A DNA stretch of 32,000 bases, taken from NCBI RefSeq assembly GCF_000014785.1, contig NC_008340.1, forward strand, positions 1,740,001 through 1,772,000, given 5' to 3'. The translations under genes and the position numbers were made by a program. The stretch's first letter is position 1. Every line of letters starts with the position of its first letter. The stretch is from Alkalilimnicola ehrlichii MLHE-1. GTDB taxonomy: Bacteria; Pseudomonadota; Gammaproteobacteria; Nitrococcales; Halorhodospiraceae. The notes beneath the pieces are model-generated. The model did not search any database and was not told the origin of the DNA. It worked only from the letters and a program-made list of their open reading frames with translations. Shown in pieces: positions 6,427 to 27,874 of this stretch.

Positions 6427-6459
6427 GCACCGACACCTGGGTCAATTCTGTTGGCCACA

Positions 6460-9049: not shown

Positions 9050-9550
9050 AGCCCTATCAGTCAACGTAGTTGTCGCCTCAACGCAACCAGCAGGTGACAA
9101 CCATGAAGCACTACTCCGCGGAGCGTAAGGAAGCTGTCCTGCGCAAGCTGGCACCACCGATGAACCTCACTGTCCCTGAGGTGGCCGAGGCCGAGGGGAT
9201 TTCCGCGGCGACCTTGTACAATTGGCGTAAACAGGCCCGCGAGCGAGGACAGGTTTTGCCATCACGAGGATCCACCCCGGAGGGCTGGAGCAGCGAGGAG
9301 AAATTCCGCGTCGTGCTCGAGACCGCGCCGATGACCGAGGCGGAGTTCAGCGCCTATTGCCGTGAGAAGGGGCTCTATCCCGAGCAGGTCGAGGCCTGGC
9401 GGGAGAGCTGCATGAATGCCAACGCTAACTCGGCCGAGCTGGACAAGCGTTCGCGCCAGGAGCGCAAGGCCGAGCTCAAGCGCGTGAAGAAACTCGAGCG
9501 CGAGCTCCGGCGCAAGGACAAGGCCTTGGCGGAGACGGCGGCGCTGCTAA
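9050..9550 (+). mobile_element. left end of a second, different IS3-like element, truncated by the IS66 insertion
   Basis: The left terminus (a)GCCCTATCAGTCAACGTAGTTGTCGCC recurs inverted at about 26284. The orfA reading frame is cut at 9550/9551 by the IS66 IR. Confidence 0.65.
9103..9550 (+). pseudogene. IS3-family OrfA (HTH, Transposase_8-like), 3'-truncated
   Basis: MKHYSAERKEAVLRKL ... GISAATLYNWRKQARERG HTH followed by the coiled coil KRVKKLERELRRKDKALAETAALL. After codon ~149 the frame runs into IS66 sequence (9551 onward). Confidence 0.7.
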
Positions 9551-9636
9551 GTAGGCGATCCACAAACCCCATCTGTTGCGCCCGGAGCTGATTCGGGAAA
9601 CTGCTCCCATCGAATCCAGATGAGGAGGTCAGTTCC

Positions 9637-9843
9637 ATGTGGTTGTCACCAGCGCGCGCCCGTTGGTTGGGGTATCTGCATCATGCGCACGCTTGCGGCC
9701 TGTCGCTGAGCGATTATGCCCAGGCGCAGGATTTGAGCCTCGCCGAGCTTTTGGGCTGGGAGCGTCACCTGGCAGCGCTCGGCATTGCGGTGCCGCAGCG
9801 CCACCGGCCGGCCCGGTTTGTGGCCGTGGCGGTGCAGCCATGA
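9637..9843 (+). CDS. tnpA: IS66-family accessory protein TnpA (small)
   Basis: 68-aa ORF with RBS gaggagg at 9622-9628. Its stop overlaps the tnpB start (ATGA at 9840-9843), which is the expected position for the family. Confidence 0.6.
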   Translation: MWLSPARARWLGYLHHAHACGLSLSDYAQAQDLSLAELLGWERHLAALGIAVPQRHRPARFVAVAVQP

Positions 9844-10196
9844 TCCGGCCCGATACCCAGGTCAATGTCTATCTCTGTCGCGAGCCGGTGGACATGCGCA
9901 AATCCATCGATGGCCTTTCCCTGCTCGTCCAGGAGGCGATGGCGCTCAATCCGTTCGAGCAGGCGGTGTTCGTCTTCTGCAACCGGCAGCGCGACAAGGT
10001 CAAGATCCTCGCCTGGGAGCGCAATGGCTTCGTGCTCTGGTACAAGCGCCTGGAGCAGGAGCGGTTCAAGTGGCCGGATCGGCTGCAGGGCGACACCCTG
10101 ACCCTTTCCGGGCAGGAACTGAACTGGCTGCTGGATGGGTACGATATCGCGTTGATGCGCCCCCATAAAGCGTTGCATTATCAGGCCGTTGGTTGA
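9840..10196 (+). CDS. tnpB: IS66-family TnpB (IS66 Orf2-like)
   Basis: 118 aa: MIRPDTQVNVYLCREPVDMRKSIDGLSLLV ... FVFCNRQRDKVKILAWERNGFVLWYKRLEQERFKWP, the hallmark IS66 Orf2 sequence. The annotated ORF 9639.. is an upstream in-frame extension. Confidence 0.9.
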   Translation: MIRPDTQVNVYLCREPVDMRKSIDGLSLLVQEAMALNPFEQAVFVFCNRQRDKVKILAWERNGFVLWYKRLEQERFKWPDRLQGDTLTLSGQELNWLLDGYDIALMRPHKALHYQAVG

Positions 10197-10240
10197 TCTT
10201 TTTGCTTTTGGAGGGGGCCTGATTCTGCTATAATTGGGCC

Positions 10241-11833
10241 ATGAAATCAGCGGCCATTCAACCAGATAGGGATGTCTCCCGCCTACAGCGTCAGGTCGCT
10301 GAGCTGGAGAAAAAGCTCGCCGAAAAGGACGCCCTGTTGGCCACCAAGGAAGCCCACTGGGCTGCCCGCGAGTGCTCCATGTTCGAGCAGATCCGGCTGC
10401 TGCTCGACAGCCGTTTCGGCCCCTCCACCGAACGCTACCACGTCGATCAGCAGCAACTGCAGTTCGACGAGGCCGAGCAGTATGCCGATGCACCGGTCAC
10501 CGAACCGGAGGCAGAGGCCGCTCAAGCCGGCGAGACGGCCCCGAGCGTGCCGGCCAAGCGCCGGAACCGTGGCGGCCGCGTGCGGCTGCCCGCGGAACTG
10601 CCACGGGTCGAGGTGGTGCACGATATCCCCGAGGCACAGCGCTACTGCCCGCATGGCGGCAGCGAGCTGACCTGTATCGGCGAAGAGGTCACCGAGCAAC
10701 TGGATGTCATCCCCGCCCGGGTGCAGGTCCGCCGCCACATCCGCCGCAAGTACGCCTGCAGATGCTGCGAAGAAGGCGTGCACACCGCAAGCATGCCGCC
10801 GCAACCGCTGCCCTGGAGCATGGCCAGCCCCGGATTGCTGGCCTACATCGCCACCGCCAAGTATGAATACGGGCTGCCGCTCTACCGCCAGGCCAAGGGC
10901 TTCGAGCGCAAGGGCATCCCGCTGCCGCGTAACACCCTGGCGCGCTGGATGGTGGGCATCGGCGAGCTGCTCACCCCGCTGGGGCAGGCCCTGCAGGACC
11001 ATCTACTGGCCCAGCCGCTCATCCACATGGATGAGACCACGGTCCAGGTGAACACCGAGCCGGGGCGAACGGCCTCCAGCACCTCCTACATGTGGGTCCA
11101 GCGCGGTGGCCCGCCCGGTGAGCAGGTGGTGCGCTACGACTACGACACCAGCCGCTCCGGCCGGGTCCCCCGCCGCCTGCTCGGCGACTATGCCGGCGTG
11201 CTGGTCACCGACGGCTACGAGGGCTATGCCCAGGTGGTGCGGGAGAATGGCATCACCCATGCCGGCTGCTGGGCGCATGCCCGGCGGAAGTTTGTCGAGG
11301 CCCAGAAGGTCCAGCCCAAGGGCAAGACCGGCAAGGCCGACTGGGCGCTGAGCCTGATCGGCAAGCTTTACCGCGTCGAGCGCGAAGGCAAAACCCTGGA
11401 CCCGGAGGATCGCCTGGTGCTGCGTCAGCGCCAGAGCCGGCCGCTGATCGACAAACTCCAGCGCTGGCTGGAGAAGTCCATCACCCAGGTGCCGCCGAAG
11501 ACCGCCATCGGCAAGGCCCTACGCTATCTCCAGACCCAGTGGCCCCGGCTGACCCGCTTTCTCGATGATGGGCGAATCCCACTGGATAACAATCCGGCGG
11601 AGAACGCCATCCGACCCTTCGTAGTGGGTCGAAAGAACTGGCTATTCAGTCACACCACCCAGGGCGCGTCGGCCAGCGCGATGATCTATAGCGTGATAGA
11701 GACGGCCAAGGCCAACGGGCTGGAGCCCTACGAGTACCTGGAAGATGTCCTTACCCGCCTGCCGGCTGCGGACACCGACCAGGCGATTCACGCCCTGCTG
11801 CCCTGGAACTGGGGGAAGACCATACAGGCCTGA
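10241..11833 (+). CDS. tnpC: IS66-family transposase TnpC
   Basis: 530 aa. N-terminal leucine zipper, Cys-rich Zn-finger region (CPHGGSELTCIGEE ... YACRCCE), DDE core (HMDETTVQV, VLVTDGYEGY, GCWAHARRKF), and IPLDNNPAENAIRP near the C-terminus. Confidence 0.92.
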   Translation: MKSAAIQPDRDVSRLQRQVAELEKKLAEKDALLATKEAHWAARECSMFEQIRLLLDSRFGPSTERYHVDQQQLQFDEAEQYADAPVTEPEAEAAQAGETAPSVPAKRRNRGGRVRLPAELPRVEVVHDIPEAQRYCPHGGSELTCIGEEVTEQLDVIPARVQVRRHIRRKYACRCCEEGVHTASMPPQPLPWSMASPGLLAYIATAKYEYGLPLYRQAKGFERKGIPLPRNTLARWMVGIGELLTPLGQALQDHLLAQPLIHMDETTVQVNTEPGRTASSTSYMWVQRGGPPGEQVVRYDYDTSRSGRVPRRLLGDYAGVLVTDGYEGYAQVVRENGITHAGCWAHARRKFVEAQKVQPKGKTGKADWALSLIGKLYRVEREGKTLDPEDRLVLRQRQSRPLIDKLQRWLEKSITQVPPKTAIGKALRYLQTQWPRLTRFLDDGRIPLDNNPAENAIRPFVVGRKNWLFSHTTQGASASAMIYSVIETAKANGLEPYEYLEDVLTRLPAADTDQAIHALLPWNWGKTIQA

Positions 11834-11950
11834 GACCGAGCTCGGTAGGTGGGCGGGGTGGACCGCTTACTTCGGGACCTGTCGGAAGAAGCTTCGGGTT
11901 GAGTAGTGTCGGGCCATGTCTCCCTCCCCAGCCGTCCTGCCAGAATCTCC

Positions 11951-12014: not shown

Positions 12015-12209
12015 ATGGCCACCACTAAGACCGCGACCGTGACCTTCCGCATTGATCCAGCCGTGAAGGAGGGGCTCCGTACCGCTGCCGCCCGGGAGCA
12101 CCGCTCCATTGCCAACATGGTGGAGGTGTTGATCCGGGATTATTGCGGGCGCAACGGCATTGCAATCCCCGAGAACAACGAACGGCCGCATGGAAAAGAC
12201 AACACATGA
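12015..12209 (+). CDS. ribbon-helix-helix (CopG/Arc/MetJ-type) DNA-binding protein
   Basis: 64 aa starting at MATTKTATVTFRIDPAVKEGLRTAAAREHRSIANMVEVLIRDYC. This has the beta-strand, helix, helix pattern typical of RHH proteins. The stop overlaps the SNF2 start (ATGA at 12206-12209). The track ORF 11916.. is an N-terminal extension. Confidence 0.7.
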   Translation: MATTKTATVTFRIDPAVKEGLRTAAAREHRSIANMVEVLIRDYCGRNGIAIPENNERPHGKDNT

Positions 12210-15097
12210 CGATCACGGCCCACCACGCCAAATACTATGCCTATGACCTGACGCGTCAGGCCCCTCCCGGCGCGGCGGACCAGCTCTCCATGTCGCTGTT
12301 CGATGCGTCGGTCGATCTGAACCCCCATCAGATCGAGGCAGCGATGTTCGCCCTGCAGTCCCCGCTCTCCGAGGGAGTCGTGCTTGCGGACGAGGTGGGC
12401 CTGGGCAAGACCATCGAGGCGGGCATCGTGCTGTGCCAGCGGTGGGCGGAGCGCCGCCGGCGCCTGCTGGTGATTTGTCCCGCTGCGATACGCAAGCAGT
12501 GGGCCACCGAGTTGCAGGAGAAATTCAACCTGCCCGCTGTGGTAATGGATTCCCGCGCCTACCGGCAATTCCAGCAACAGGGCCAACCACGGCCATTCGA
12601 GCAGCGGGCCGTGATCCTGGTCTCCTACCACTATGCGGCTCGTATGCAGGACGACCTGCGTATGGTGCGCTGGGAGCTGGTGGTCATTGATGAAGCCCAC
12701 AAGCTGCGCAATGCCTACCGGCCCAGCAACAAAGTGGGCCAAGCCATTCGCTGGGCCACCGAAGGCCGCCGCAAACTGCTTTTGACCGCTACGCCATTGC
12801 AGAACAGCCTGATGGAGCTGTACGGGCTGGCGAGCCTGATCGATGATCACATCTTCGGCGATCCCAACGCCTTCCGTTCCCAGTACGTCAATGCCGGTGG
12901 CGATCTGGCCGGGCTGCGCCAGCGTCTGGCGGGCTTTTGCAAACGCACCTTGCGCCAGGAGGTGCTTGAGTATGTGCGCTACACTGAGCGCCGGGCGCTG
13001 ACCCAACCCTTCCGGCCAACTGATGCCGAGCAGAAACTCTACGACCGCATCTCCGAGTTTCTGCAGCGGGAAAACACCTACGCCATTCCCGACCGTCAGC
13101 GCCACCTGATCGTGCTGATCCTGCGCAAGCTGTTGGCCTCCAGCTCAAACGCGATCGCCGGCACTCTCGAGAGCCTTCGCGACCGGCTGATCGACCTGCG
13201 CGACAGTGAGCAACTGGAGCTGGACTGGAGCAGCCAACTGATCGAAAGCGAGGAAATGGAAACCGAGCTGCTGGACGAGTGGCTGCCGCCGGAGGAGAAC
13301 GGCGAGGCCAATGGTAAGACCGAAGACAATCGTCCGGAACCGAAGAAGCTGCGCGATGAAATCAGCGAGATCGACAGTCTGGCCAAGGCTGCCCGCGCCA
13401 TTGGTGTGGATGCCAAATCCTGCGCACTGCTCACCGCGCTCGATGTCGGTTTCCAGGAGATGGGTCGAATGGGGGCGCGGGAAAAGGCGTTGATCTTCAC
13501 CGAATCCCGCCGAACCCAGGACTATCTGAAAGACTATCTGGAGCAGAACGGTTATGCCGGGGAGGTGCTGCTGTTCAACGGCACCAATGCCGGCCCTGAA
13601 GCCAAGGCCATCTACGAGAACTGGGTCGGCAAAAACCAGGAAAGCGGCCGCGCCACCGGTTCCCGCGCCATCGATGCCCGGCTGGCGCTGGTGGAGCATT
13701 TCCGCGACAACGCCAAAATCATGATTGCCACGGAAGCAGCGGCGGAAGGCGTCAACCTGCAGTTCTGCTCGCTGGTGATCAATTACGACCTGCCCTGGAA
13801 CCCCCAGCGTATCGAACAGCGCATTGGTCGCTGTCACCGTTACGGCCAGCAGCACGATGTGATCGTGGTCAACTTCCTCAACGAGCGCAACGAGGCAGAC
13901 CAGCGCGTGCATGAGTTGTTGACGGAGAAGTTCAGTCTCTTCAACGGTCTGTTTGGTGCATCCGATGAAGTGCTGGGCCAGCTTGAGTCTGGCGTCGATT
14001 TCGAGAAGCGCATCCTCGCCATCTACCAGCAGTGCCGCACCTCGGATGAAATCGAAACCGCCTTTCGCCAGCTCCAAGAAGTACTGGAGGAGCAGATCAA
14101 GAGCCGCATCCAGGAAACCCGCCAGACCCTGCTGGAGCATTTCGACGAAGACGTGCACGCCCGGCTGCGCTTGCGGCTGGAAGACGCCCAGGCCCAGCTC
14201 GACCGCATCGGCCAGCGTTTCTGGCAAGTCACCGGGCACATACTGGATGGCCGCGCACGCTTTGATGATGCCAGGCTGGTCTTCGATCTCCACGAGCCGC
14301 CAAAGGCCGACATCCGGCCTGGCCGCTACCACCTGATCTCCAAGACGCGCAGTGGTGAGCAGGGCGAATCGCCGGACTACGGCTACTACCTGTACCGCCT
14401 CTCCCATCCGCTGGGCGAGCACGTCATCGAATCGGCCAAGCAGCAGCCGACGCCCACAGCGCATCTGCGCTTCAACATCACCGTCCATCCGGGGCGCATT
14501 GCCCTGGTGGAAGCACTCAAGGGTAAGTCCGGTTGGCTGACATTGGCTCGGCTGACCATCGAATCTTTCGAAACCGAGGAATACCTGCTGTTCTCCGGCA
14601 TCGACGACGAAGGCCGCTCGCTGGACAATGAAACCTGCGCCAAGCTGTTTAACGTCGCCGCTGACAATCGTGGCCCGGCGGACTTGCCCGCCGAGGTGGA
14701 GCAGCGCCTTGCCGCTGAGCTTGCCCAACACCAGCGCGCCACTGCGAACCGCTCGCTGGAGGCCAACAACCAGCACTTCAACGCCGCCCGCGAACGCCTG
14801 GAACAATGGGCGGAAGACAAGATGCTGGCCACCGAGAAAACGCTCAAGGACACAAAAGAACAGATCAAGGCCCTGCGCCGTCAGGCCCGACAGGCCGAAA
14901 CCCTGGAAGATCAGCACGACATCCAGGAACGTCTGAAACAACTCGAGCAGCGCCAGCGCAAGCAGCGCCGGGACATCTTCAAGGTGGAAGACGAAATCGA
15001 AGAACAGCGCGACAGCCTCATTGCCGCGCTGGAAAAACGCCTTGCCCGAGACCAGCGTAGTGAGCGCCTGTTTACGCTGCGCTGGTCCGTCGTATGA
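12206..15097 (+). CDS. SNF2-family (SF2) helicase/translocase, 963 aa
   Basis: Helicase motifs: [14 protein letters not shown] (I), [10 protein letters not shown] (II, DEAH), [16 protein letters not shown] (III), [10 protein letters not shown] (IV), [12 protein letters not shown] (V), [18 protein letters not shown] (VI). The roughly 330-aa C-terminal extension ends in a K/R/E-rich coiled coil. Confidence 0.9.
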
Positions 15098-15158
15098 CGG
15101 ACAACAACGGCAACCAGAATCAAGCAATCAACGAAAACACGACAAGGACTATCGCAGC

Positions 15159-18388
<3,230 letters not shown>

Positions 18389-18392
<4 letters not shown>

Positions 18393-21220
18393 GCCAGAAC
18401 CTTACACCCGTGAACAACGAATGGCGTTTTCCCGGTGCCCGCTGGTGGAGCTTCGACTTTCACACGCATACGCCCGCGTCCAGTGACTATGGGAAAGGAC
18501 CAGATCAGGCGGAATTGAGAGAGATAACGCCGGAAGAATGGTTGCTCAAGTTTATGCGGGCAGAGATTGACTGCGTCGCGGTCACTGACCACAACTCAGG
18601 CGATTGGATTGATCGGCTAAAGGCTGCGCTAGACCATCTCCGCGAGCAGCAGCACGCGGATTATCGGCCCCTCTGGCTCTTTCCAGGTGTCGAAATTACA
18701 GCCAATGGAAATATCCATATTCTGGCCATCTTTGATCCAGCCAAGGATGGTGCGGATGTCAGTGCGCTGCTGGGGGCGGTCGGCAATCACGGCAACCGGG
18801 GGGAGAGCAACCGTGCCGTGAACGCTTCCCCAATCGAAGTGATTCAGAGAGTCGTAGAAGCCAGTGCGTTGCCCGTGCTGGCCCACGTAGACGGCCCTTC
18901 CGGCGCCTGGGAGCTAGGCGGCAATACATTAACGCCCTTGCTTGAGTGTGAAGGCCTATTTGCAATGGAGGTGGTTAACCAATGCTCGGAAAAGCCTGCA
19001 CTATACGGTCAGAAGCACCTGCGCTGGGCAGAAGTGCTGGGGTCTGACGCGCATCACCCTTCCGGCCCCGACGGTGCGCGCTATCCGGGTTCGCATTGGA
19101 CCTGGGTAAAAATGGCGCAACCATCGCTGGAAGGCTTGCGCCTTGCCTTGCTTGATGGTGAAGGGTTCTCCATTCGCCGCAGTGATGATCCGGAACCGTT
19201 CGACCCAAACGCGCTGCCTGAGAATTTTATCGAGTCAGTAGAAATTGACGATGCCCGCTATATGGGGCGTGGTCAGCCGGAAACCCTTTCCTTCAGCCCG
19301 TGGTTCAACGCGCTGGTAGGCGGGCGGGGGACAGGAAAATCGACCATCGTGCACGCACTGCGGCTGGTGTTGAGGCGCGAGAATGAGTTGCAAGCCCTGG
19401 AGCAAGGCAGCGAGCCGCGCCGTACTTTCGAAAAATTCAGTCGCGTAGCACGTGGGCGAGACGACGATGGTGCGCTTACGCTGGATACCCATGTGGCACT
19501 GACCTTTATTAGGGACGGCACACGTTATCGCGTGTACTGGCGTCAAGATGGCTCGGGTTCGATCGTCGAAGAACGAAAAGATGGTGAGTGGCGTGAATCG
19601 GATAATCAGGCGGTGATTCCCGAGCGTTTCCCCATCCGGCTGTTCAGCCAGGGCCAGATCGCGGCACTAGCCGGCGGAAGCCATCAGGCGCTGCTCGATT
19701 TGATCGATGAAGCGGCGGGAGTGGATGCCGAACAAACCGCGCTGCGTGAGGCACGGCAGACCTATTTGTCTCTACGCGCCAAAGCGCGTGAACTGGAAGG
19801 CCGGCTTCAAGGGCGTGATGCACTGAAGGTCCGCTTGGAAGACGTGCAGCGGAAATTGAAGAAGTTCGAGGAAGCCCATCACGCCCATGTGCTAAAGGCG
19901 TATCAGCGTCGATCCCGACAGGAACGGGAAGTTAACCGCCAGTTTGAATCGGTTGCTGAAATTGTGGGCCGTGTTCGTGAACTCGCAGAAGAATTGGCGG
20001 CGGAGGATGTCCCGGAGCAACTGTTCGATGAGCAGAACGAACAGGACAAGGAGGCGCTGGCCCTCGTGTCGGGTCTCCATCAGGCGATTGAATCCGCCAC
20101 GAAGGCGTTGAAGGGCACGGCCAATGACTTGGCGGCCACGGTCCGGAAAGAGCGGGAAAAACTCCCGGATACTGACTGGCAGCAGGCAGTGAGCAAGGCG
20201 CGGACCGATTACGAGAAACTTGTCAGGGATCTAAAGGAACAGGGTGTCGCGGATCCTAGCGAGTATGGCCAGTTGGTACAGGAGCGGCAGCGGCTGGAAA
20301 ACCAGTGGAAGGAATTGGAGTCGTTAGCCGCGCAGCGCAGCCGAGTCCTGGATCAGGCCGAAACCCAGCTCGAGTCGGTTGTAGCGGCTCGGCGGGCGCT
20401 CAGCGAGCGGCGGGAAGCCTTTCTTGAGGAGAGTCTGGCCGATAACGAATATGTGCAGATCAACCTGAAGCCTTACGGCCAAGATGTCCGTGCCATGGAA
20501 CGAAGCTTGCGAGAATTGTTGGGCGCGGAAGGCTCAAAATTCGAAGCGGATATACTGATTGAAGAAGATAGCCAGCCTGCCAAGGGGATTGTCGCTGAAC
20601 TGATTAAACAGTTACCTGATGATCTTACTCAGGCAAAAGGGGAACTTGAACGAAGGGTCGGCCAAATCAAACGGCGCCTGAATGAATCCTGCCGGGGCAA
20701 CGGCATTTTCGGTGGTCACTTCAACAACTTCCTTTCCAAGCAGGCGAGTAATCGCCCTGAGTATGTCGATCACATAATGATGTGGTATCCGGACGATGGC
20801 TTGGATGTGAGGTACAGTCAAAAAGGCGATGGGCGGGATTTCAAATCCATTGAACAGGCATCGGCAGGTCAACGCGCGGCTGCGATGCTGGCATTTCTGC
20901 TGGCCTACGGCTCTGAACCGATTGTGCTGGATCAGCCAGAAGATGATCTCGATAATCACCTGATTTACAACCTGGTGGTTCGCCAATTGCGTGAAAACAA
21001 GCGGCGGCGGCAGATTATTTCCGTAACGCATAATCCCAACATTGTGGTCAATGGGGATGCCGAAATGCTCCACGCACTGGATTTTCGCGGCGGCCAGTGT
21101 CGGGTGATCGAAAAAGGCTCGCTACAGGAAGAAGCCATGCGCGATGAGGTTTGCCATGTCATGGAGGGCGGCCGCGATGCATTCGAGCGGCGTTATCGTC
21201 GTTTGGGCAAGGAGGTATAG
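18389..21220 (+). CDS. PHP-domain phosphoesterase fused to an SMC/RecN/OLD-like ABC ATPase with a long coiled-coil insert, 943 aa
   Basis: PHP metal ligands: [27 protein letters not shown]. ATPase motifs: Walker [10 protein letters not shown] (about 19319-19345), signature-like SAGQR, Walker [12 protein letters not shown] (about 20923-20952), H-loop SVTHNPN. About 300 aa of heptad-rich sequence lies between Walker A and the signature. Confidence 0.85.
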
Positions 21221-21223
21221 GGC

Positions 21224-22495
21224 ATGTTTGATACCGCGGCTGCGCTCTTGGAGAAGATACAGCTTGGGGAAGATTCCTTCCTTGAGCTGAAGGAGGTTCG
21301 GATCGCCGGGAAGCGAGTGACCGCACCACATCGCAACTCACTGGTGGACGAATTGGCAGCGTTTGCGAATGCCAAGGGCGGTGTCTGTGTGCTCGGTGTG
21401 GATGATGCAACGCGAGAAATTCTCGGGATTCCGCGAGACAAGCTGGACCTTGTGACTGACTATGTCCGGCAGACCTGCCTGGACTCAGTGACACCACCGT
21501 TGACCCCAGTTATTGAGCGGCTACTTCTGCCTACGACCACCGGTGACGAGGTGGCCGTATTGAAGGTGGAAATCGGTCGCAGCTTGTGGGTGCATCGCAG
21601 CCCCGGCGGCTATATGCATCGGGTGGGTGATGAAAAGCGTGAAATGGCGCCGGACTTCCTCGCCCGACTGTTTCAGCAGCGCAGTCAGGCCCGAATCATT
21701 CGCTTTGACGAGCAGCCAGTGCCGAATGCCACCCTGGATGACTTGAATGAGGCGCTTTGGCAACGATTCGCAACCGCACGTACCCGGGATAACCGCGATG
21801 ACCTGCTGCGAAAGCTCGGCATGGCCCGCATGGATGACGATGTCTTGCGCCCGTCGGTGGCGGGTATCCTTCTGGCTTCCGATGATCCTCGCCATTGGCT
21901 GCCCAATGCGTTTATTCAGGCGGTCGCCTACCGGGGTACTGAAATTCGACCGGTAGGCGACCAAGCGTACCAGCTTGATGCAGCAGATCTCACCGGGCCT
22001 TTGGATCAACAGGTGCTTTCTGCCTGCCATTTTGTCAGCAAAAATATGCGAGTCGCCGCGTCCAAAAGCGTGGGCCGAGAGGATGTTCCTCAGTTTGATA
22101 TGACAGCCGTATTCGAGGCCATCGTCAACGCGGTCGCGCATCGTGACTACGCTATGCAGGACGCCAAGATCCGGTTGCGCGTATTCGCAGACCGCATGGA
22201 ACTGTACTCCCCCGGAGCCATCCCTAACACCATGACGGTGGATAGCCTACCGTACCGCCAGGCTGCACGGAATGAAACGATTACCAGTTTGCTGGCGAAA
22301 TGTCGGGTGCCGGATGAAGGCGGGCTGGGAACAGGCCGATCCACCATGATGGATAAGCGGGGCGAAGGCGTGTCCATCATCCTTCAAAATAGTGAAATGC
22401 TGTCCGGTCGTGTCCCGGAATACAGCCTGGTTGATGATAGTGAGCTCCGCCTGGTGATTTACGCACCAGCGGAAACGGATGGAGGGGAAGACTGA
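21224..22495 (+). CDS. AlbA_2 (Schlafen-like DNA-binding) plus HATPase_c_4-like ATP-binding protein, 423 aa
   Basis: N-terminus [10 protein letters not shown] ... [22 protein letters not shown] is the typical AlbA_2 divergent AAA-like box. C-terminus [34 protein letters not shown] is the GHKL-like box seen in RecG-related putative regulators. RBS aaggagg at 21209-21215, with a 3-nt gap after the upstream stop. Confidence 0.8.
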
Positions 22496-22497
22496 GC

Positions 22498-25400
22498 ATG
22501 CCGCCTCGTAGACGCAACAACCGGCCGCAGGTGCCGTTCGCCTACAAGCTGGTGCTGAACCAGTGGCTGTTCAGCCTGTTTGGGCTGGCGTCCACTGACG
22601 GCTTCTTTACCTGGAACGGAAAGCGCCTGCCGTTACTGGAAGCCTTCAAGCAGAAGTTTCAGTTGAGCGAAGACAGCGCCGGCGGGTTGGACGAGAACAA
22701 CATCCACCGCTTCCACACGGCCCTGACCAACCAGACCGACCCGCTGCCCGAACTGCCGGCCGATCTATTGCTCGAGTATGACCAGAATATCGTCCGTCAT
22801 ACCCAGCGTTTGAACGAGCGCCGGCTGGCGCGCGGCGAAGAGGCTATCGCCTGGAAGTACTTCCAGTACCTGTCGCTGCTGTTCACCGAAATCTATCTGG
22901 ACCGTTATTTCTCCGATGCGGATGCCTTGCTGGCCTCGATCAACGAACAGATTGAGCGCTACAACGCGGACAAGCCGGAACCGGACCAGGTCCCAAATCT
23001 GGATCCGGAAGGCGATGTCACCGGGCAGTTGAACAAGCTGGCCTTCTGGAGCGCCACCGGCTCCGGTAAGACGCTGATCATGCACGCCAATATCCTGCAA
23101 TATCAGCACTACCTGACCAAGCACCGCCGCCGCCGCGAGCTCAACCGGATCATCCTGTTGACGCCCAACGAAGGGTTGAGCCAGCAACACCTGCGAGATT
23201 TCCAGGCTGCCGGGATCGAGGCGGAGTTGTTCGACAAGAACGGTCGCGGGCTGTTCGCCGGGCAGGCTGTCGAGATCATCGACATCAATAAACTGCGCGA
23301 CGAGATGGGCGATAAGACGGTTGCCGTCGATGCCTTCGAGAACAACAACCTCGTGCTGATCGATGAAGGGCATCGGGGTGCCAGTTCCGGTGAGACCGGC
23401 ACCTGGATGCGCTTTCGCAATGCATTGTGCGAGCAGGGTTTTTCCTTCGAATACTCCGCCACTTTCGGCCAGGCGGTAAAGCGCAGCTCCCAACTGGCGG
23501 CCCAGTACGAGCGTTGCGTGCTTTTCGACTATTCCTACAAGTATTTCTATGGCGACGGCTATGGCAAGGACTACCAGATCCTGAACCTGGACCCGCAGAC
23601 CCAGGAAAACACTATGGAGGTTTACCTGGTGGCCTGCTTGCTGTCTTTCTTCCAGCAGCTGCGCTTGTATCGCGAACAGGCTGTGGCTTGCCGGCCGTTC
23701 AATATTGAGAAGCCGTTGTGGATCTTCGTCGGCGGCCGGGTCACCGCGTCTCTTTCGACCAAGGATGCCTCCGACATTGTTGAGATTCTGCGCTTTTTGG
23801 CGCGCTTTCTCGGTGATCGTGCCGGGAGTACGGCGCGCATCCGGCGGGTGCTGGAGGAAGGCTTGATTGCTGCCGATGGGCGCAATCTATTTGCCCGGCG
23901 TTTTGCCTACCTGAACGGATTGGGGCTTTCGGCCGAGCAACTGTTCGAGGAAGTACAGGCCAGCCTCTTCAATGCCGCAGGGGGCGGCGCGCTGCACGTG
24001 GAGAACCTGAAGGGTGTCCCGGGGGAAATCGCTTTGCGCGTTGGCGACAATGAGCCGTTCGGCGTGATCAATGTCGGCAATGACAGCAGACTGTGCTCGC
24101 TCTGTGAGAACGAAGACGGGCTGCTGGTCGGTGATCGGGATTTCAAGGGCTCCCTGTTCCAGTCCATCAATGCTCCCGATTCGTCTGTCAATGTACTGAT
24201 CGGCTCCAAGAAGTTCACCGAAGGCTGGAACAGTTGGCGCGTCAGTACCATGGGGCTGATGAATGTGGGCAGCACGGAGGGTTCGCAGATCATCCAGCTT
24301 TTTGGCCGCGGGGTGCGCCTGAAGGGTTATGACGGCAGCCTGAAGCGCAGTGCCAGGGTGAACCTCCCGGAGGATGTCGCGCGGCCAGGACACCTGCCGA
24401 CACTCGAAACCCTGAATATCTTCGGCATCAAGGCCGACTACATGGCCCAGTTCCGCGAGTTTCTCGAAGAAGAGGGGCTGCCGTCTAACGAGGAGCGTAT
24501 CGAGTTCCTGCTGCCCGTGATTCGCAACCTGGGTCAGAAGCAGCTCAAGACCATTCGCTTGAAGAAGACCATCAACGGGGTAAGTACCCAGTTCGGTGAC
24601 GCCTTCAAAAAGCTCGGGCCAGTGCCGACACTGGCCCGGCCCGATCCCGCGCAGGAGGCGGCCACCCGGTATCTGCAAACCAATCCGGTTGTGCTGAATT
24701 GGTATCCCAAGATCCAGGCGATGCGCTCCAGTGGCGTCGGTGCCGTGGAGGAGGATCGTCAGCCGGATCAGGGTGCCCTGAGCAAGAGACACATCGCCTT
24801 TCTCGACCTGGACGCGCTGTATTTCGAGCTACAACGCTTCAAGGCTGAGCGGGCCTGGCACAACCTGAACCTGCCACGGGATGTGTTGCCCGAACTGCTG
24901 GCCGACCAGAGCTGGTATCGGTTGCTAATCCCGGAGTCCGAGCTGGCCTTCGATTCCTTCGAGAAGATTCACCTGTGGCAGGAACTCGCCGAGGCGCTGC
25001 TCAAGAAGTACTGTGAGCGCTACTACTCGTTCCGCAAAAAGGAATGGGAGCTGCCACACCTGGAGTATCGCTATCTGGATGCCAACGATCCGAACTTTCC
25101 TCAGGTCAATGAGGATTTCCCGGAGGGATACCACCGCATCCTGGTGGAAGAGTCTCAGACCGAGATTGTCGCCAAGCTCAAGGAGCTCAAAGCACAGATT
25201 GATGCGGGCACGCTGAAACCCTGGCAGTTTGGCGGCCTGCAAGCTATTCCATTTGGTCGCCACCTGTACGAGCCACTGTTGCATCTGGCGGGCTCAACCG
25301 TCGAGATCAGTCCCGCACCCCTGAACCAGGGCGAGAGGCGCTTCGTGGAAGACCTGAGGGACTACTGTGACTCGAAACCGGCATTACTGCAGGACAAGGA

Positions 25401-25812
25401 ACTCTATCTGCTACGTAACCTGAGCAAGGGCCGCGGCGTAGGCTTCTTTGAGGCAGGTAACTTCCATCCCGATTTCATCGTTTGGTTGATCGCTGATGGT
25501 CAGGAGTACATCTCGTTCGTCGATCCCAAAGGGATTCGAAACCTCGGTGCCCAGGACCCGAAAATCCAGTTCCACCAGACCATCAAGGAAATCGAAGATC
25601 GGCTTGGCGATTCAACTGTGACGCTGAACAGTTTCGTGATTTCCAATACGCCAGCGCATGAGATGCGATTGCTTTGGGGGGTGGACAAGGCGCAGATGGA
25701 AGCCTGGCATGTTCTTTTCCAGCAGGAGGACAAGGCCAGTTATATCGATTCGCTACTCGCCAAATCACTTGAGCCTGTCAAGTCTCCCGCGAAGGGATCC
25801 GTTTCCAAGTAA
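22498..25812 (+). CDS. SF2 (DEAD/DEAH, type III Res-like) helicase with C-terminal PD-(D/E)xK nuclease motif, 1104 aa
   Basis: Helicase motifs: WSATGSGKT (I, about 23050-23073), LIDEGHRG (II, 23362-23373), YSATF (III), QLFGRGVRL (VI). C-terminal nuclease motif HPDFIVW ... x16 ... FVDPKG (25468-25530). RBS ggagggg at 22481-22487, with a 2-nt gap after the upstream stop. Confidence 0.88.
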
Positions 25813-26093: not shown

Positions 26094-26284
26094 GCGGGCC
26101 TGTTTACGCCAATTGTACAAGGTCGCCGCGGAAATCCCCTCGGCCTCGGCCACATCAGGGACAGTGCGGTTCATCGGTGGTGCCAGCTTGCGCAGGACAG
26201 CTTCCTTACGCTCCGCGGAGTAGTGCTTCATGGTTGTCACCTGCTGGTTGCATAGAGGCGACAACTACGTTGACCGATAGGGCA
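26094..26284 (-). mobile_element. inverted partial second copy of the IS3-like left end plus orfA 5' part (same family as 9050-9550)
   Basis: High (roughly 95%) nucleotide identity to 9050-9240 by my eye alignment. Encoded MKHYSAERKEAVLRKLAPPMNRTVPDVAEAEGISAATLYNWRKQA differs at 2 residues. Homology stops abruptly at 26094, where intron-derived sequence begins. Confidence 0.7.
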
Positions 26285-26445: not shown

Positions 26446-26796
26446 CTATCTGAGCATATCCCTCAACCTGCTTCTCCTGCTATCTGATTCATCCAAAACA
26501 TCATCTAAATTATCCTTCAGCACCTCATTTTCTGACTCGAGCTCTTTATTTTTTCGGATTAGATTGTCCTGTATTGAAATGAGACTTTTAATGACCTGCT
26601 CCGGATCATCAAAGTCGATTTCTTCTGGTCGGACATCCCCACCGGAGAGCCCCGCTCTCTCTGCTTGGGAGAGCGCACGCTCCACTTCTGACTTAACTGC
26701 CCGGTCAAGCACGTACCGAGCGGCATCCTCACTGCTACAGGCTACAACGGCGACTGCAACAACAACACCCAGGATCACAGAATTAATCTTAGCCAT
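26446..26796 (-). CDS. small lipoprotein with acidic coiled-coil C-terminal part, 116 aa
   Basis: Signal peptide plus lipobox (ILGVVVAVAVVAC|SS), followed by heptad-like NLIRKNKELESENEVLKDNLDDVL. RBS aaggaa. The start overlaps the upstream gene's stop by 8 nt. Low-GC coding sequence. Confidence 0.65.
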   Translation of the reverse strand: MAKINSVILGVVVAVAVVACSSEDAARYVLDRAVKSEVERALSQAERAGLSGGDVRPEEIDFDDPEQVIKSLISIQDNLIRKNKELESENEVLKDNLDDVLDESDSRRSRLRDMLR

Positions 26797-27874
26797 TACT
26801 TTCCTTCCGGGATTCCGGACCCCCCTTTAGCCAGGCAATTGATCGCTTCGCGAAATTCTCTGCGATATGACGCCTCGGCACGAGACAAAACAACCTATGG
26901 AAAACAGGAAAAACTCGATCCACCATCCCACGCTGTAGCAACACCATGGCAATGGAAAGTGGCATCATCTTCAGAAGGTTAAACAAAAAAACAAGCGCGT
27001 AAAACGCATAAAACCCGTCTAGCCGATCCTCGTCAGAAAAACCCCATATGTCAAGAAACTCATTCGCCGATGCGAGCTTGAACGCATCAAGAATAAGGTA
27101 CATATTTATTAGCGGCCGGGATATTTCATTACCCCCCAAACTCGGCACCTGATTATTTTCTGCATACTCAATGAAGTCAATCTGCCCGAGATCTGAATTG
27201 TAATCGTAGCCTACATTAGAAACAAAAAAAGAATGAAGGTCTTTCGCACTCAGCACACCCGCAAGAACGACATTAATAACAACGATGGCCAGGATTAACC
27301 CCAAAACATTTCGACCAGCATCACCTCCTGCGCCCGCGCTTTCAGAACCGTCTCTTCCAGCCTTAATATCTCCATCTTTATTTTCTATAGGACTGCAACT
27401 TTTTGGAGAACCCTCATTCTCACCAGAAGCACTTGCTGCATCCTTCGAAATATTTCTATCTTGAATACCTTTGACTGCAGCGCTCCCCAAGAAATAAGAG
27501 ACAAAGAAAGCACATATCAAAAGCAGAAAGAAGACAGGAACCACACCATGACTTATAACCGCTCCTTTCGCAACCAGAGAAAAGATAATGGACAATATAA
27601 AGGCAAAAGCCGCAGACCCTAATAGCTGCCAGGCGGACCCACTTTTCTCAAAGAACGCACGAAGCACGGAACCTTTCTCAAAGAATACTTTTACGGAGTT
27701 TCGCAGCACCATCTGAACATCATAGGCAGCACCCCATAAAACCAAAAAAACCACACCAAAAAGCAAAGAAAAACCAAGATCAGTTCTTCCAAATAGAAAA
27801 ACCAAACCGAAAAAAGGGATCATTGACACCAAGACTAAACACCACCTTTTGGAACGACCCATTACTCCCCCCAC
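26789..27874 (-). CDS. polytopic inner-membrane protein of unknown function, 361 aa
   Basis: At least 5-6 hydrophobic segments, including WCLVLVSMIPFFGLVFLF, LLFGVVFLVLWGAAY, LLGSAAFAFILSIIFSLV, VVPVFFLLLICAFFVSYFLG, VLGLILAIVVINVVLAGVL, FYAFYALVFLFNLL. It also has a central G/S/D/E-rich loop. The GTG at 27874 or the ATG at 27862 are possible starts. About 40-48% GC. Confidence 0.65.
   Translation of the reverse strand: MGGVMGRSKRWCLVLVSMIPFFGLVFLFGRTDLGFSLLFGVVFLVLWGAAYDVQMVLRNSVKVFFEKGSVLRAFFEKSGSAWQLLGSAAFAFILSIIFSLVAKGAVISHGVVPVFFLLLICAFFVSYFLGSAAVKGIQDRNISKDAASASGENEGSPKSCSPIENKDGDIKAGRDGSESAGAGGDAGRNVLGLILAIVVINVVLAGVLSAKDLHSFFVSNVGYDYNSDLGQIDFIEYAENNQVPSLGGNEISRPLINMYLILDAFKLASANEFLDIWGFSDEDRLDGFYAFYALVFLFNLLKMMPLSIAMVLLQRGMVDRVFPVFHRLFCLVPRRHIAENFAKRSIAWLKGGPESRKESNG

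What the first reader, a model, noticed from the sequence alone, without database searches (positions are those of the whole stretch)
12015..25812. Six-gene coupled helicase / methylase / PHP-ATPase / AlbA_2 / helicase-nuclease operon: candidate composite, possibly undescribed defence system
Seen in sequence: six same-strand genes span 13.8 kb with almost no intergenic space.
- ATGA stop/start overlaps occur at 12206-12209 (RHH/SNF2) and 18389-18392 (MTase/PHP-ATPase).
- Gaps of 3 nt and 2 nt lie at 21221-21223 and 22496-22497, with Shine-Dalgarno sequences embedded in the upstream gene ends.
- The only larger gap is 61 nt at 15098-15158.

Established knowledge:
- A beta-class Mod-like MTase plus an SF2 helicase carrying a C-terminal PD-(D/E)xK motif is the logic of type III R-M.
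- SNF2 helicase plus a large N6 MTase is the drmD-drmMI pair of class 1 DISARM.
- A helicase-methylase-ATPase triad was proposed as 'Hma' from PADLOC analyses.
- A PHP+ATPase single-gene system was named Ppl in the Gao et al. 2020 screen, as I recall.

Inference: none of those descriptions covers this architecture.
- The Mod-like and Res-like genes are separated by two inserted genes, the PHP-SMC ATPase and the AlbA_2/HATPase protein.
- No DISARM drmA/B/C (DUF1998 or PLD) gene is present.
- The whole set is headed by an RHH regulator.

The tight coupling argues for one multi-subunit machine with two translocases and two candidate nucleases (PHP and PD-ExK) under one methylation-based self-marking enzyme. 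It argues against three neighbouring independent systems. The locus sits in a tRNA-linked island, bracketed by IS debris, which is a typical defence-island context.
Basis: partly seen in the sequence, partly recalled or inferred. Interest (0 to 1): 0.88.

Follow-up and report, generated by a model that had tools for sequence, protein, structure and literature searches.

The report
Type III restriction operon carrying embedded defence genes
The six tightly packed genes are not one new six-part machine: they are an already described three-gene type III restriction-modification system (plus a small regulator) with a separately mobile two-gene defence cassette inserted between its methylase and nuclease genes.

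Summary
The window is from Alkalilimnicola ehrlichii MLHE-1.

The single-machine interpretation does not hold. Comparison with about 100 related loci splits the cluster into modules:
- **Core.** SNF2 ATPase, type III-like Mod and Res form a conserved core. Mod lies upstream of Res in 56/56 loci, and SNF2 is present in 41/55. This three-gene type III subgroup was described in 2021 (Eco86II, BspHIV).
- **Regulator.** The RHH gene is exchangeable; relatives carry WYL regulators instead.
- **Cassette.** The PHP-ATPase (TrlF/Ppl family) and the Schlafen-HATPase gene are a 4.1-kb insertion. Thioalkalivibrio ALE23 has the same core at about 90% nucleotide identity without it.

The same TrlF-Schlafen pair is also embedded in type 1 BREX loci and stands alone elsewhere. 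The two junctions of the core carry many other cargos in other genomes, including IetAS, GmrSD-like, Fic, AIPR and HEPN genes.

The cluster is therefore layered defence by embedding, which is a known phenomenon. In the literature I searched, the TrlF-Schlafen pairing and its habit of sitting directly behind methylase genes are not described. A tRNA link was not confirmed. The IS66 bracket was.

The parts
9051..11900 (+). Complete IS66-family element (orf1 9070-9591, TnpB-like within 9639-10196, TnpC 10241-11833). It forms the left bracket of the defence cluster.
   Evidence: Pfam HTH_Tnp_1, TnpB_IS66 and DDE_Tnp_IS66 with zf-IS66. Its first 190 nt recur inverted at 26094-26283.
12015..12209 (+). 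G1: 64-aa ribbon-helix-helix (CopG/Arc-type) protein, the presumed operon regulator. Its stop overlaps the SNF2 start (ATGA).
   Evidence: - Pfam RHH_1 scores 21.0 bits, just above its cut-off.
- Found only in near relatives: L006, L026 and L086.
- Absent from the ~90%-identical Thioalkalivibrio locus, whose nucleotide homology starts at 12195 and which has a WYL-type (WCX) gene instead.
- L087 has a BrxR/WYL regulator.
12206..15097 (+). G2: SNF2-family ATPase (963 aa), the accessory third gene of the type III subgroup.
   Evidence: - Pfam SNF2-rel_dom 1.4e-34 and Helicase_C 7.2e-19.
- PADLOC DrmD model PDLC02619 scores 691 bits.
- NCBIfam DrmD_b scores 703 bits, below its cut-off of 950.
- Closest solved structures are RapA.
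- Sits upstream of Mod in 41 of 55 related loci.
- Homologous 'SNF2-related protein' genes head type III loci in E. coli and on a Ketogulonicigenium plasmid.
15159..18392 (+). G3: type III-like Mod methyltransferase (1077 aa). It is beta class, with long N- and C-terminal extensions.
   Evidence: - Pfam N6_N4_Mtase 3.1e-22.
- PADLOC MTase_III PDLC03646 scores 683 bits.
- Core residues 486-804 match solved type III Mods 6k0w, 7dsu and EcoP15I Mod 4zcf_A.
- DPPY precedes FAGSG in the sequence.
- Lies upstream of Res in 56 of 56 loci.
18389..21220 (+). G4: TrlF-family (Ppl-related) PHP phosphoesterase fused to an ABC/SMC-like ATPase (943 aa). It is the first gene of the embedded cassette, and its start overlaps the Mod stop (ATGA).
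   Evidence: - NCBIfam TrlF_fam_ATP scores 623 bits against a cut-off of 350. Ppl_antiphage scores 570 bits against a cut-off of 1000.
- PADLOC Ppl scores 472 bits.
- The C-terminal head matches SMC heads in the PDB.
- NCBI names the protein 'TrlF family AAA-like ATPase'.
21224..22495 (+). G5: prokaryotic Schlafen (AlbA_2) nuclease domain fused to a histidine-kinase-like ATPase (423 aa). It is the second gene of the embedded cassette.
   Evidence: - Pfam SLFN_AlbA_2 6.2e-16 and HATPase_c_4 1.8e-17.
- Residues E16-x4-E21-x-K23 fit the Schlafen catalytic motif Ex4(E/D)xK (sequence; motif as defined in 10.1101/2025.07.24.666596).
- PDB hits to SLFN8, SLFN11 and SLFN14 over residues 10-83.
- Sits immediately downstream of TrlF homologues in BREX loci and in loci without a methylase.
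18383..22524 (+). Approximate limits of the 4.1-kb indel (G4 plus G5, the last ~3 codons of Mod and the first ~9 codons of Res) relative to the cassette-free Thioalkalivibrio sp. ALE23 locus.
   Evidence: blastn of the window against L099 gives 12195-18382 at 89.5% and 22525-25700 at 89.7%, with nothing in between. In L099, Mod and Res are 2 nt apart.
22498..25812 (+). G6: type III-like Res (1104 aa), with an SF2 helicase-type ATPase and a C-terminal PD-(D/E)xK nuclease motif.
   Evidence: - Pfam ResIII 3.5e-10.
- PADLOC REase_III PDLC03654 scores 747 bits.
- Walker A (ATGSGKT) and DEGH motifs are present in the sequence.
- D992, D1009 and K1011 are invariant.
- An alpha-beta-beta-beta-alpha-beta pattern is predicted at 944-1049, with pLDDT of about 65-85 in this part only.
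- More than 7,800 homologues at E<=1e-10, many 67-97% identical.
26094..26283 (-). Inverted 190-nt fragment of the IS66 left end, forming the right bracket of the cluster.
   Evidence: Inverted repeat I2, 97% complementary to 9051-9240. Assemblies of the same strain break on both sides of the cluster, giving the 14.3-kb contig L001.

Best explanation
The cluster is a nested composite of separately inherited units that are transcribed together.

- By analogy with EcoP15I and Eco86II (inferred), a Mod dimer recognises a short asymmetric site and methylates one strand.
- Mod2Res uses ATP to move along DNA and cuts with the C-terminal PD-(D/E)xK domain when unmethylated sites are met.
- The role of the SNF2 protein is unknown. 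In Eco86II it was needed neither for methylation nor for cleavage in vitro.

**Unit B: the regulator (G1).** A small RHH regulator that is swapped for WYL-type regulators in relatives.

**Unit C: the embedded cassette (G4, G5).** A mobile two-gene cassette sits in the mod|res junction.
- G4 is a TrlF/Ppl-family PHP exonuclease coupled to an ABC ATPase. E. coli Ppl is reported to be a 3'-5' ssDNA exonuclease released by nucleotide depletion and free 3' ends.
- G5 is a Schlafen-type nuclease with a histidine-kinase-like ATPase. Prokaryotic Schlafens are reported to be tRNA-cutting abortive-infection effectors.

**How it most likely works.** I take this to be layered immunity. Restriction by unit A is the first line. 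Unit C is a second line that rides on the operon's expression and does not need unit A to function.

**Shown:** the modular distribution, the clean indel, the family memberships and the tight coupling.

**Inferred:** every biochemical activity, the methylated base, and the independence of unit C in vivo.
For: **The core triad.**
- Among 80 genome loci with a G6 homologue (51-92% identity, many phyla), Mod lies upstream of Res in 56/56 and a full-length SNF2 lies upstream of Mod in 41/55.
- The same DrmD-like SNF2 (PADLOC PDLC02619, 627-669 bits) heads a second type III family on a Ketogulonicigenium plasmid and in E. coli, where the DNA search matched 268 of 5,426 complete genomes.
- The three-gene type III group is described in PMC8259958.

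**The middle genes are an insertion.**
- Thioalkalivibrio ALE23 has SNF2-Mod-Res at about 90% nucleotide identity with a clean 4.1-kb gap where G4 and G5 sit.
- Chromohalobacter (L006) has RHH-SNF2-Mod-Res without them.
- L087, L004 and L100 have G4 but not G5.

**The pair travels on its own.**
- It is embedded between pglX and pglZ of type 1 BREX in L089, L090 and L091.
- It sits beside a Dsr1-like gene with no methylase in L092.
- It sits on a Burkholderia thailandensis plasmid after a relaxase gene in L096.
- G4 and G5 are coupled by an overlap or a gap of at most 3 nt in all of these.
- Divergence is incongruent between cassette and host: G4 71% with Res 88% in L086, against G4 80% with Res 72% in L100.

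**The junctions are cargo slots.**
- 19/55 loci carry genes at mod|res and 12/41 at SNF2|mod.
- Cargo includes Fic, Bro-N, AAA_21 plus DUF4276, GmrSD_N, DUF3800, AIPR, PLD, DUF1016, HEPN and HTH-M78 genes.
- In E. coli E24377A, genes matching the PADLOC IetA and IetS models (the IetAS system) sit in the SNF2|mod slot.

**Embedding is an established pattern.**
- See 10.1101/2024.01.29.577857.
- Ppl embedded in Hma is reported in PMC11232893.
- Schlafen-histidine-kinase genes embedded in BREX are reported in PMC12839542.
Against: - The six-gene order is not a one-off. It recurs in metagenomic loci with substantial divergence: L086 has RHH 56%, Mod 70%, G4 71%, G5 91% and Res 88%. Several further contigs appear to carry both a G4 and a G6 homologue; this is inferred from matching contig lengths. 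A stable functional partnership in this lineage is therefore possible.
- TrlF sits directly behind a methylase gene, often with an ATGA overlap, in three unrelated host systems. That could mean more than shared transcription.
- One apparent stand-alone pair (L088) is really a decayed triad. It keeps the Mod 3' end and a Res fragment.
- No experiment on this locus exists.
- G6 shows no detectable sequence similarity to any solved Res subunit, and its structure model was poor. Its mechanism therefore rests on motifs and on PADLOC and Pfam models only.
Confidence: 0.8

Rival explanations
1. One reading: the six proteins form one multi-subunit machine. Two translocases (SNF2, Res) and two nucleases (PHP, PD-ExK) work under a single methylation mark.
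For: - Stop/start overlaps and 2-3 nt gaps, with no internal promoter or terminator signal above chance.
- The order is conserved in diverged loci L083-L086.
Against: - None of 55 species-level homologous loci carries both middle genes.
- A ~90%-identical core exists without them.
- The pair occurs in BREX loci and without any methylase.
- G5 is missing from several loci that have G4.
- Equally tight coupling is seen for unrelated cargo in the same slots.
Confidence: 0.06
2. Functionally wired second line: the TrlF(+Schlafen) cassette is not an autonomous rider but reads the state or the products of the host methylation system. It might fire when the Mod/Res complex (or BREX PglX) is blocked by a phage anti-restriction protein. 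Alternatively it might process the 3' ends that Res cleavage creates. The precedent is PrrC with EcoprrI.
For: - TrlF lies immediately 3' of the methylase gene in type III, BREX and type I-like F-plasmid loci, usually overlapping its stop.
- E. coli Ppl is reported to need free 3'-OH ends (PMC12904381), which a restriction enzyme would supply.
- The arrangement persists through divergence.
Against: - The pair also occurs with no methylase nearby: L092 and L096.
- Ppl works as a single gene in published screens. This rests on my own knowledge of Gao et al. 2020, and on the review text read.
- Position behind the methylase may simply reflect where insertions are tolerated in an operon.
Confidence: 0.25
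3. Pure coincidence: three or four unrelated systems (an orphan DrmD-like helicase, type III R-M, Ppl, a Schlafen) were piled together by IS activity in a defence island, with no relationship at all.
For: - The locus is bracketed by IS66 sequences and lies next to IS3, IS21 and integrase genes.
- Automated tools would most likely label the parts separately, as PADLOC hits to DrmD, MTase_III, Ppl and REase_III suggest.
Against: - SNF2 is conserved 5' of Mod in 75% of loci across phyla and in a second type III family.
- The cassette lies inside the operon with translational coupling, not beside it.
- The same layout recurs in unrelated samples.
Confidence: 0.05

Closest known systems
Three-gene type III R-M subgroup with an extra helicase-like ATPase 5' of mod (Eco86II, BspHIV; Murray et al. 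2021, PMC8259958)
   Same: - Same gene order: SF2/SNF2 ATPase, beta-class Mod, then Res with Walker A, DExH and a C-terminal PD-(D/E)xK motif.
- The G2 DNA finds 'SNF2-related protein' genes that head type III loci in E. coli.
- Both hit the same PADLOC SNF2 model, PDLC02619.
   Different: - Mod (1077 aa) and Res (1104 aa) belong to a different and larger family: PADLOC PDLC03646/03654 rather than PDLC03636/03648.
- The recognition site and the methylated base are unknown.
- Mod and Res are separated here by a 4.1-kb cassette.
Classical type III R-M (EcoP15I/EcoPI)
   Same: - The Mod catalytic core is homologous to EcoP15I Mod (4zcf_A, 2.4e-21).
- Res has a helicase-type ATPase followed by a PD-(D/E)xK motif, and mod precedes res.
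   Different: - There is no detectable sequence similarity between G6 and any solved Res, either by single sequence or by profile.
- Both subunits are far longer.
- A third conserved gene (SNF2) is present.
Ppl (Gao et al. 2020) and the NCBIfam TrlF family
   Same: - PHP domain plus ABC/SMC-like ATPase in one polypeptide of about 940 aa, with full-length matches to both models.
- Passes the TrlF cut-off.
   Different: - Fails the Ppl equivalog cut-off: 570 bits against 1000.
- Here, and in many relatives, it is translationally coupled to a Schlafen-HATPase partner and embedded in a methylation system, rather than standing alone.
Prokaryotic Schlafen-histidine-kinase proteins (pSlfn; 10.1101/2025.07.24.666596; noted as BREX-embedded in PMC12839542)
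   Same: AlbA_2/Schlafen domain with an intact Ex4ExK motif, plus a HATPase_c_4 domain. This is the commonest pSlfn architecture, and it is reported as embedded in BREX and BREX-related loci.
   Different: - Defence activity of this architecture has not been shown. The two positives in that study had other fusions.
- Its pairing with TrlF is not mentioned in the papers I could search.
Embedded defence genes ('guilt by embedding', Payne et al. 2024; PrrC in EcoprrI)
   Same: Cargo genes are nested between the core genes of a methylation-based system, co-oriented and tightly packed, and are also found outside that host (compared).
   Different: The host analysed here, SNF2-associated type III R-M, was not among the hosts surveyed (Hma, BREX, DISARM, type I R-M).
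Class 1 DISARM
   Same: An SNF2 ATPase that scores highest on DrmD models, followed by an amino-methyltransferase.
   Different: - No DrmA, DrmB (DUF1998) or DrmC (PLD) anywhere in the window.
- The methylase is PF01555, not PF13659.
- The SNF2 score is below the NCBIfam DrmD and DrmD_b cut-offs.
Hma / type 1 BREX-related systems and MANTIS (Gao_RL)
   Same: - Methylation-based systems with a helicase-type ATPase that often host embedded cargo.
- Some MANTIS operons start with a CopG/Arc-type repressor.
   Different: - Those systems are built around a DUF499 ATPase, with a DUF1156 methylase or a PLD-helicase.
- None of these is present. G3 and G6 do not hit HmaB or HmaC, and G2 hits HmaA only weakly at 181 bits.

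Membership tests
Type III R-M, three-gene subgroup (PMC8259958) | Beta-class Mod with motif IV (DPPY/F) before motif I (FxGxG), homologous to type III Mods | tested here: met
   - DPPY precedes FAGSG in the translation.
- PF01555.
- PADLOC MTase_III scores 683 bits.
- PDB hits to type III Mods 6k0w, 7dsu and 4zcf_A.
Type III R-M, three-gene subgroup (PMC8259958) | Res with Walker A, DExH and a C-terminal PD-(D/E)xK motif | tested here: met
   - ATGSGKT and DEGH motifs.
- ResIII.
- PADLOC REase_III scores 747 bits.
- D992, D1009 and K1011 are invariant.
- Caveat: no similarity to solved Res chains, and the structure model was poor.
Type III R-M, three-gene subgroup (PMC8259958) | Additional SF2 helicase-like ATPase without a nuclease motif, immediately 5' of mod | tested here: met
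   - G2 ends 61 nt before G3.
- Conserved in 41/55 loci.
- Homologous to the E. coli SNF2 gene that heads type III loci.
Type III R-M, three-gene subgroup (PMC8259958) | mod and res adjacent | tested here: not met
   They are separated by 4.1 kb (G4, G5) in the window. They are adjacent in 36/55 related loci and in the ~90%-identical L099. The separation is a secondary insertion.
Type III R-M, three-gene subgroup (PMC8259958) | Hemimethylation of a short asymmetric site, and ATP-dependent cleavage between inversely oriented unmethylated sites | not testable with these tools
   Needs SMRT or nanopore methylome data and cleavage assays.
Class 1 DISARM | Core drmA helicase, drmB (DUF1998) and drmC (PLD) | tested here: not met
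   No such domains in any ORF of the cluster or its flanks.
Class 1 DISARM | drmD SNF2 helicase passing the curated DrmD models | tested here: not met
   NCBIfam DrmD_b scores 703 bits against a cut-off of 950. DrmD scores 282 bits against 610.
Hma (type 1 BREX-related) | SNF2 with a NOV_C/DUF3883 nuclease, a DUF1156 methylase and a DUF499 ATPase | tested here: not met
   - HmaA scores only 181 bits, against 691 bits for DrmD.
- No HmaB or HmaC hits.
TrlF family (NCBIfam NF045780) | Full-length match above the curated cut-off | tested here: met
   623 bits against a cut-off of 350, over residues 16-940. NCBI uses this name for the protein.
Ppl anti-phage protein (NCBIfam NF042955) | Full-length match above the curated cut-off | tested here: not met
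   570 bits against a cut-off of 1000. The architecture is the same and the PADLOC Ppl model scores 472 bits. It works like Ppl but is filed as the sister family.
Prokaryotic Schlafen (pSlfn-HisKinase) | Schlafen/AlbA_2 domain with the Ex4(E/D)xK motif, fused to a histidine-kinase-like ATPase | tested here: met
   - PF04326 and PF13749.
- E16, E21 and K23 in the sequence.
- SLFN8, SLFN11 and SLFN14 hits.
- The motif is defined.
Embedded defence cassette (Payne et al. 2024) | Nested between core genes of a multi-gene system, and also found outside that host | tested here: met
   - Clean indel against L099.
- The pair occurs in BREX loci and without a host.
BREX / BREX-related / MANTIS | PglZ, BrxC/DUF499 ATPase, DUF3870 or a PLD-helicase | tested here: not met
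   None found in the window.

The most novel reading that the evidence does not exclude
The TrlF-family PHP-ATPase, usually with its Schlafen-HATPase partner, may be a methyltransferase-coupled second-line module rather than an autonomous rider.

- It sits directly behind the methylase gene, often overlapping its stop, in three unrelated methylation systems: type III Mod, BREX PglX, and a type I-like methylase on enterobacterial F plasmids.
- That placement could mean it senses blockade of the host methylase or restriction complex, or uses the complex's DNA-end products. This would resemble PrrC with EcoprrI.
- If so, the TrlF-Schlafen pair would be an undescribed two-gene defence system with a new trigger logic.
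Probability: 0.25. Interest if true: 0.7.

Novelty: new variant of a known kind. Interest (0 to 1): 0.4.

Why it matters
**For annotation.**
- Tight operon packing in defence loci does not imply one machine.
- The PADLOC DrmD model lights up SNF2 genes that belong to type III systems, so 'DISARM' or 'new system' calls on such loci need a neighbourhood check.

**For biology.**
- They turn out to be another host with two defined cargo slots. That extends 'guilt by embedding' to a host that was not surveyed.

**Concrete candidates for testing.**
- The TrlF-Schlafen pair.
- The unnamed cargos in the slots.
- The still unexplained SNF2 subunit.

Tried and rejected
- **Structure of G6.** AlphaFold2 with a 26-sequence alignment gave mean pLDDT 50.7. 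Foldseek against the PDB then returned only generic SF2 helicases, none at E<=0.001. I did not use it beyond the secondary-structure pattern of the better-predicted C-terminal part.
- **G6 against the PDB.** Sequence and profile searches found nothing, not even EcoP15I Res.
- **Literature on 'TrlF'.** Only unrelated hits. No paper combines Ppl, Schlafen and BREX.
- **MANTIS/Gao_RL and BREX-related systems.** Considered as identities for the core and rejected, because there is no DUF499, DUF3870 or PLD.
- **Hma and DISARM.** Rejected on HMM scores and missing genes.
- **Metagenome scan with G4.** Only 4 loci returned, so TrlF contexts had to be sampled one by one.
- **Plasmid megablast of the whole cluster.** Nothing useful beyond one SNF2 stretch.
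- **L088.** First read as an independent stand-alone pair, then re-read as a decayed triad once the Mod 3' end and a Res fragment were seen.
- **The >1-Mb source contig.** Never returned by the look-ups, so sequence beyond the window, such as a tRNA, could not be examined.

Full report
**1. The observation**

The window comes from Alkalilimnicola ehrlichii MLHE-1; exact protein look-ups return ABI56887 to ABI56891. Six co-oriented ORFs occupy 12015-25812, and an independent gene call on an identical contig gives the same six products.

- ATGA overlaps at 12206-12209 and 18389-18392.
- Gaps of 3 nt (21221-23) and 2 nt (22496-97), each preceded by a strong Shine-Dalgarno motif.
- One 61-nt gap before the methylase gene.

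A consensus scan shows no + strand promoter-like site inside the cluster, and terminator-like sites are at chance level.

The domain assignments are correct:

| Gene | Result |
|---|---|
| G1 | RHH |
| G2 | SNF2 ATPase; best PADLOC model DrmD, 691 bits; below the NCBIfam DrmD cut-offs |
| G3 | Beta-class N6/N4 methylase; PADLOC MTase_III, 683 bits |
| G4 | PHP plus ABC/SMC-like ATPase; passes the NCBIfam TrlF cut-off (623 vs 350), fails the Ppl cut-off (570 vs 1000) |
| G5 | Schlafen/AlbA_2 plus HATPase_c_4 |
| G6 | ResIII helicase; PADLOC REase_III, 747 bits; invariant D992, D1009 and K1011 |

On the flanks, a complete IS66 element lies just upstream, and a 190-nt inverted copy of its end lies just downstream. 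No tRNA or Rfam family is found in the window. The 'tRNA-linked' remark is therefore unsupported, while the 'IS bracket' is confirmed.

**2. What the relatives show: the core**

I kept 80 of them, at 51-92% identity, from Proteobacteria, Acidobacteria, Planctomycetes, Bacteroidota, Chloroflexi, Spirochaetes and others.

tblastn of the six window proteins against these loci gave:

| Feature | Count |
|---|---|
| Loci with a G3-type Mod upstream of Res | 56/56 |
| Loci with a full-length G2-type SNF2 upstream of Mod | 41/55 |
| Loci with both G4 and G5 | 0/55 |

- One locus has a distant PHP-ATPase in the mod|res junction (L057, 24% identity). One has a Schlafen-HATPase there (L066).
- Where SNF2 is missing, housekeeping or unrelated genes flank Mod. 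Mod-Res is therefore the minimal unit and SNF2 a frequent third gene.

The same SNF2 type (PADLOC PDLC02619, 627-669 bits) also heads a different, shorter type III pair. This occurs on a Ketogulonicigenium plasmid and in E. coli, where the G2 DNA search matched 268 of 5,426 complete genomes.

This arrangement is already published. Murray et al. [quoted passage not shown]
- It has a highly conserved helicase-like ATPase immediately 5' of mod.
[quoted passage not shown] **3. The two middle genes are an insertion**

Thioalkalivibrio sp. ALE23 carries SNF2 (963 aa), Mod (1077 aa) and Res (1104 aa) contiguously. blastn of the window against that locus aligns 12195-18382 at 89.5% and 22525-25700 at 89.7%, with nothing in between.

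This defines a clean 4.1-kb indel. Its ends lie in the last few codons of mod and the first nine or so codons of res.

Close relatives fill the junction differently:

| Locus | Content of the mod\|res junction |
|---|---|
| L006 (Chromohalobacter) | Nothing |
| L003 | An AAA_21 ATPase |
| L004, L087, L100 | TrlF alone |
| L083, L084, L086 | TrlF plus Schlafen |

G1 is also exchangeable. Homology with ALE23 starts 11 nt before G2, and ALE23 and L087 carry WYL/BrxR-type regulators instead.

**4. The pair is a mobile two-gene cassette**

I sampled TrlF homologues at 53-79% identity by context (identities):

| Locus | Context |
|---|---|
| L089, L090, L091 | TrlF plus a 63%-identical Schlafen-HATPase, embedded between pglX and pglZ of type 1 BREX; TrlF overlaps the pglX stop |
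| L093, L094 | TrlF alone in the same BREX position |
| L092 | The pair next to a Dsr1-like SIR2 gene, no methylase nearby |
| L096 | The pair (G5 73% identical) on a Burkholderia thailandensis plasmid, after a relaxase gene |

In addition, G4 matched 477 plasmid records, mostly enterobacterial. In the one F-type plasmid examined (L095), TrlF follows a type I-like HsdR-like helicase and a methylase.

- In every case with a partner, G4 and G5 overlap or lie at most 3 nt apart.
- Divergence of cassette and host is incongruent: L086 has G4 71% with Res 88%, while L100 has G4 80% with Res 72%. This fits exchange of the cassette between host loci.
- One apparent solo pair (L088) still carries the 3' end of mod and a res fragment. 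It is a decayed triad that kept its cargo.

**5. The junctions are cargo slots**

Of the related loci, 19/55 carry extra genes at mod|res and 12/41 at SNF2|mod. Their products are typical defence or abortive-infection domains:
- Fic
- Bro-N
- AAA_21 with DUF4276
- GmrSD_N
- DUF3800
- AIPR
- PLD
- DUF1016/YhcG
- HEPN RiboL-PSP
- HTH-peptidase M78
- a sigma factor

In E. coli E24377A, genes matching the PADLOC IetA and IetS models sit in the SNF2|mod slot.

This is the 'embedding' pattern described for Hma, BREX, DISARM and type I R-M (10.1101/2024.01.29.577857). Two reports touch these cargo types directly:
- Ppl has been noted inside Hma loci of Halomonas (PMC11232893).
- Schlafen-histidine-kinase genes have been noted inside BREX and BREX-related loci in over 1,000 taxa (PMC12839542).

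**6. Most likely mechanism**

*Shown*
- Modular inheritance.
- Family memberships.
- Co-orientation and tight coupling.

*Inferred from the families*
- **Mod and Res.** A Mod dimer marks one strand of an asymmetric site. Mod2Res restricts unmarked DNA in an ATP-dependent manner through its PD-(D/E)xK domain, as in EcoP15I and Eco86II.
- **SNF2.** It assists or regulates in an unknown way.
- **RHH.** It controls the operon, as C proteins and the CopG-type MtsR of MANTIS are thought to do.
- **TrlF.** It is taken to act like Ppl, a 3'-5' exonuclease held off by bound NTPs and triggered by free 3' ends (PMC12904381).
- **Schlafen.** G5 keeps the Ex4ExK catalytic motif. It probably cuts tRNA under control of its HATPase module.

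I rate 'layered defence with an autonomous embedded cassette' at about 0.8. A version in which the cassette is wired to the host system is possible at about 0.25. In that version the cassette would sense inhibition of the host system or use Res-made ends. TrlF's repeated placement right behind methylase genes favours this version, but the methylase-free instances speak against it.

**7. Comparison and novelty**

- **Not DISARM.** There is no DrmA, DrmB or DrmC, the methylase family is wrong, and the SNF2 score is below the cut-offs.
- **Not Hma, a BREX-related system or MANTIS.** There is no DUF499, DUF1156, DUF3870 or PLD.
- **The core.** It is a large-subunit member of the published three-gene type III subgroup.
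- **G4 and G5.** G4 is a TrlF-family relative of Ppl. G5 is the commonest prokaryotic Schlafen architecture.
- **Embedding.** It is a known phenomenon.

In the literature I could search, two things are not described:
- The TrlF-Schlafen pair as a unit, with its preference for the position 3' of methylase genes.
- The fact that SNF2-type III systems are embedding hosts with two slots.

I therefore file this as a new variant of a known kind, of moderate interest (0.4).

**8. Limits**

- All functions are inferred.
- The structure prediction for Res failed to reach useful confidence.
- TrlF contexts were sampled, not censused.
- Sequence beyond the 32-kb window was not available.

Noticed in passing
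window 2457-4086 and 6438-8067: Two 1,630-nt, 100% identical inverted copies of an IS3-family element flank an IS21-type element (istA-like 4128-5699, IstB 5686-6426). This looks like a recent composite arrangement.
   Followed up: partly
window 8061-8975: A 304-aa phage-integrase-family gene lies between the IS3 copy and the IS66 element. No tRNA or attachment site was found in the window.
   Followed up: partly
window 26789-27874 (- strand): A 361-aa ORF sits in a 44% GC patch, against 64-70% in the flanks. It has no Pfam or PADLOC hit and lies just beyond the IS66 fragment, so it is possibly further foreign cargo.
   Followed up: partly
L101 (E. coli E24377A, NC_009801.1 3330029-3340792) and the other E. 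coli genomes matched: In E24377A and one other genome examined (L102), the E. coli SNF2-type III locus carries an AAA ATPase and an S8 peptidase between SNF2 and mod. In E24377A they match the PADLOC IetA and IetS models, next to tRNA-Phe and an integrase. IetAS is thus an embedded system here.
   Followed up: yes
window 12206-15097; L097 8524-11385; L101 7906-10755: PADLOC's DrmD model PDLC02619 scores 627-691 bits on SNF2 proteins that sit next to type III Mod and Res, with no DrmA, DrmB or DrmC nearby, in three lineages. Such genes risk being read as DISARM remnants.
   Followed up: partly
L095 (E. coli plasmid pL37-4, NZ_CP034592.1 8987-16535); 477 plasmid records matched G4: G4 matched 477 plasmid records, mostly from Escherichia and Klebsiella and mostly conjugative. 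In the one F-type plasmid examined, downstream of traX and finO, the order is a type I-like HsdR-like helicase, a type I-like N6 methylase, then TrlF. No specificity gene is annotated and there is no Schlafen partner.
   Followed up: partly
G4 start codons in the window and in L083, L085-L093, L095 and L096: All 13 TrlF-family genes examined begin with ATGA, whether or not an upstream gene overlaps. The TGA could serve as a ready-made stop for an upstream reading frame. It could equally be shared ancestry.
   Followed up: no
L088 (Desulfobacterales MAG, JAXHNP010000006.1): The TrlF-Schlafen pair survives between the last ~60 nt of a mod gene and a 63-aa fragment of res. The host system has decayed while the cargo stayed intact.
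   Followed up: yes
window 15159-15169 and 18389-18399: The methylase gene and the TrlF gene both open with ATGAGCCAGAA (Met-Ser-Gln-Asn). This is probably coincidence.
   Followed up: no
L100 431-2017 and 5320-8148: One metagenomic locus has both slots filled by different cargo: a Fic protein before mod and TrlF after it.
   Followed up: yes
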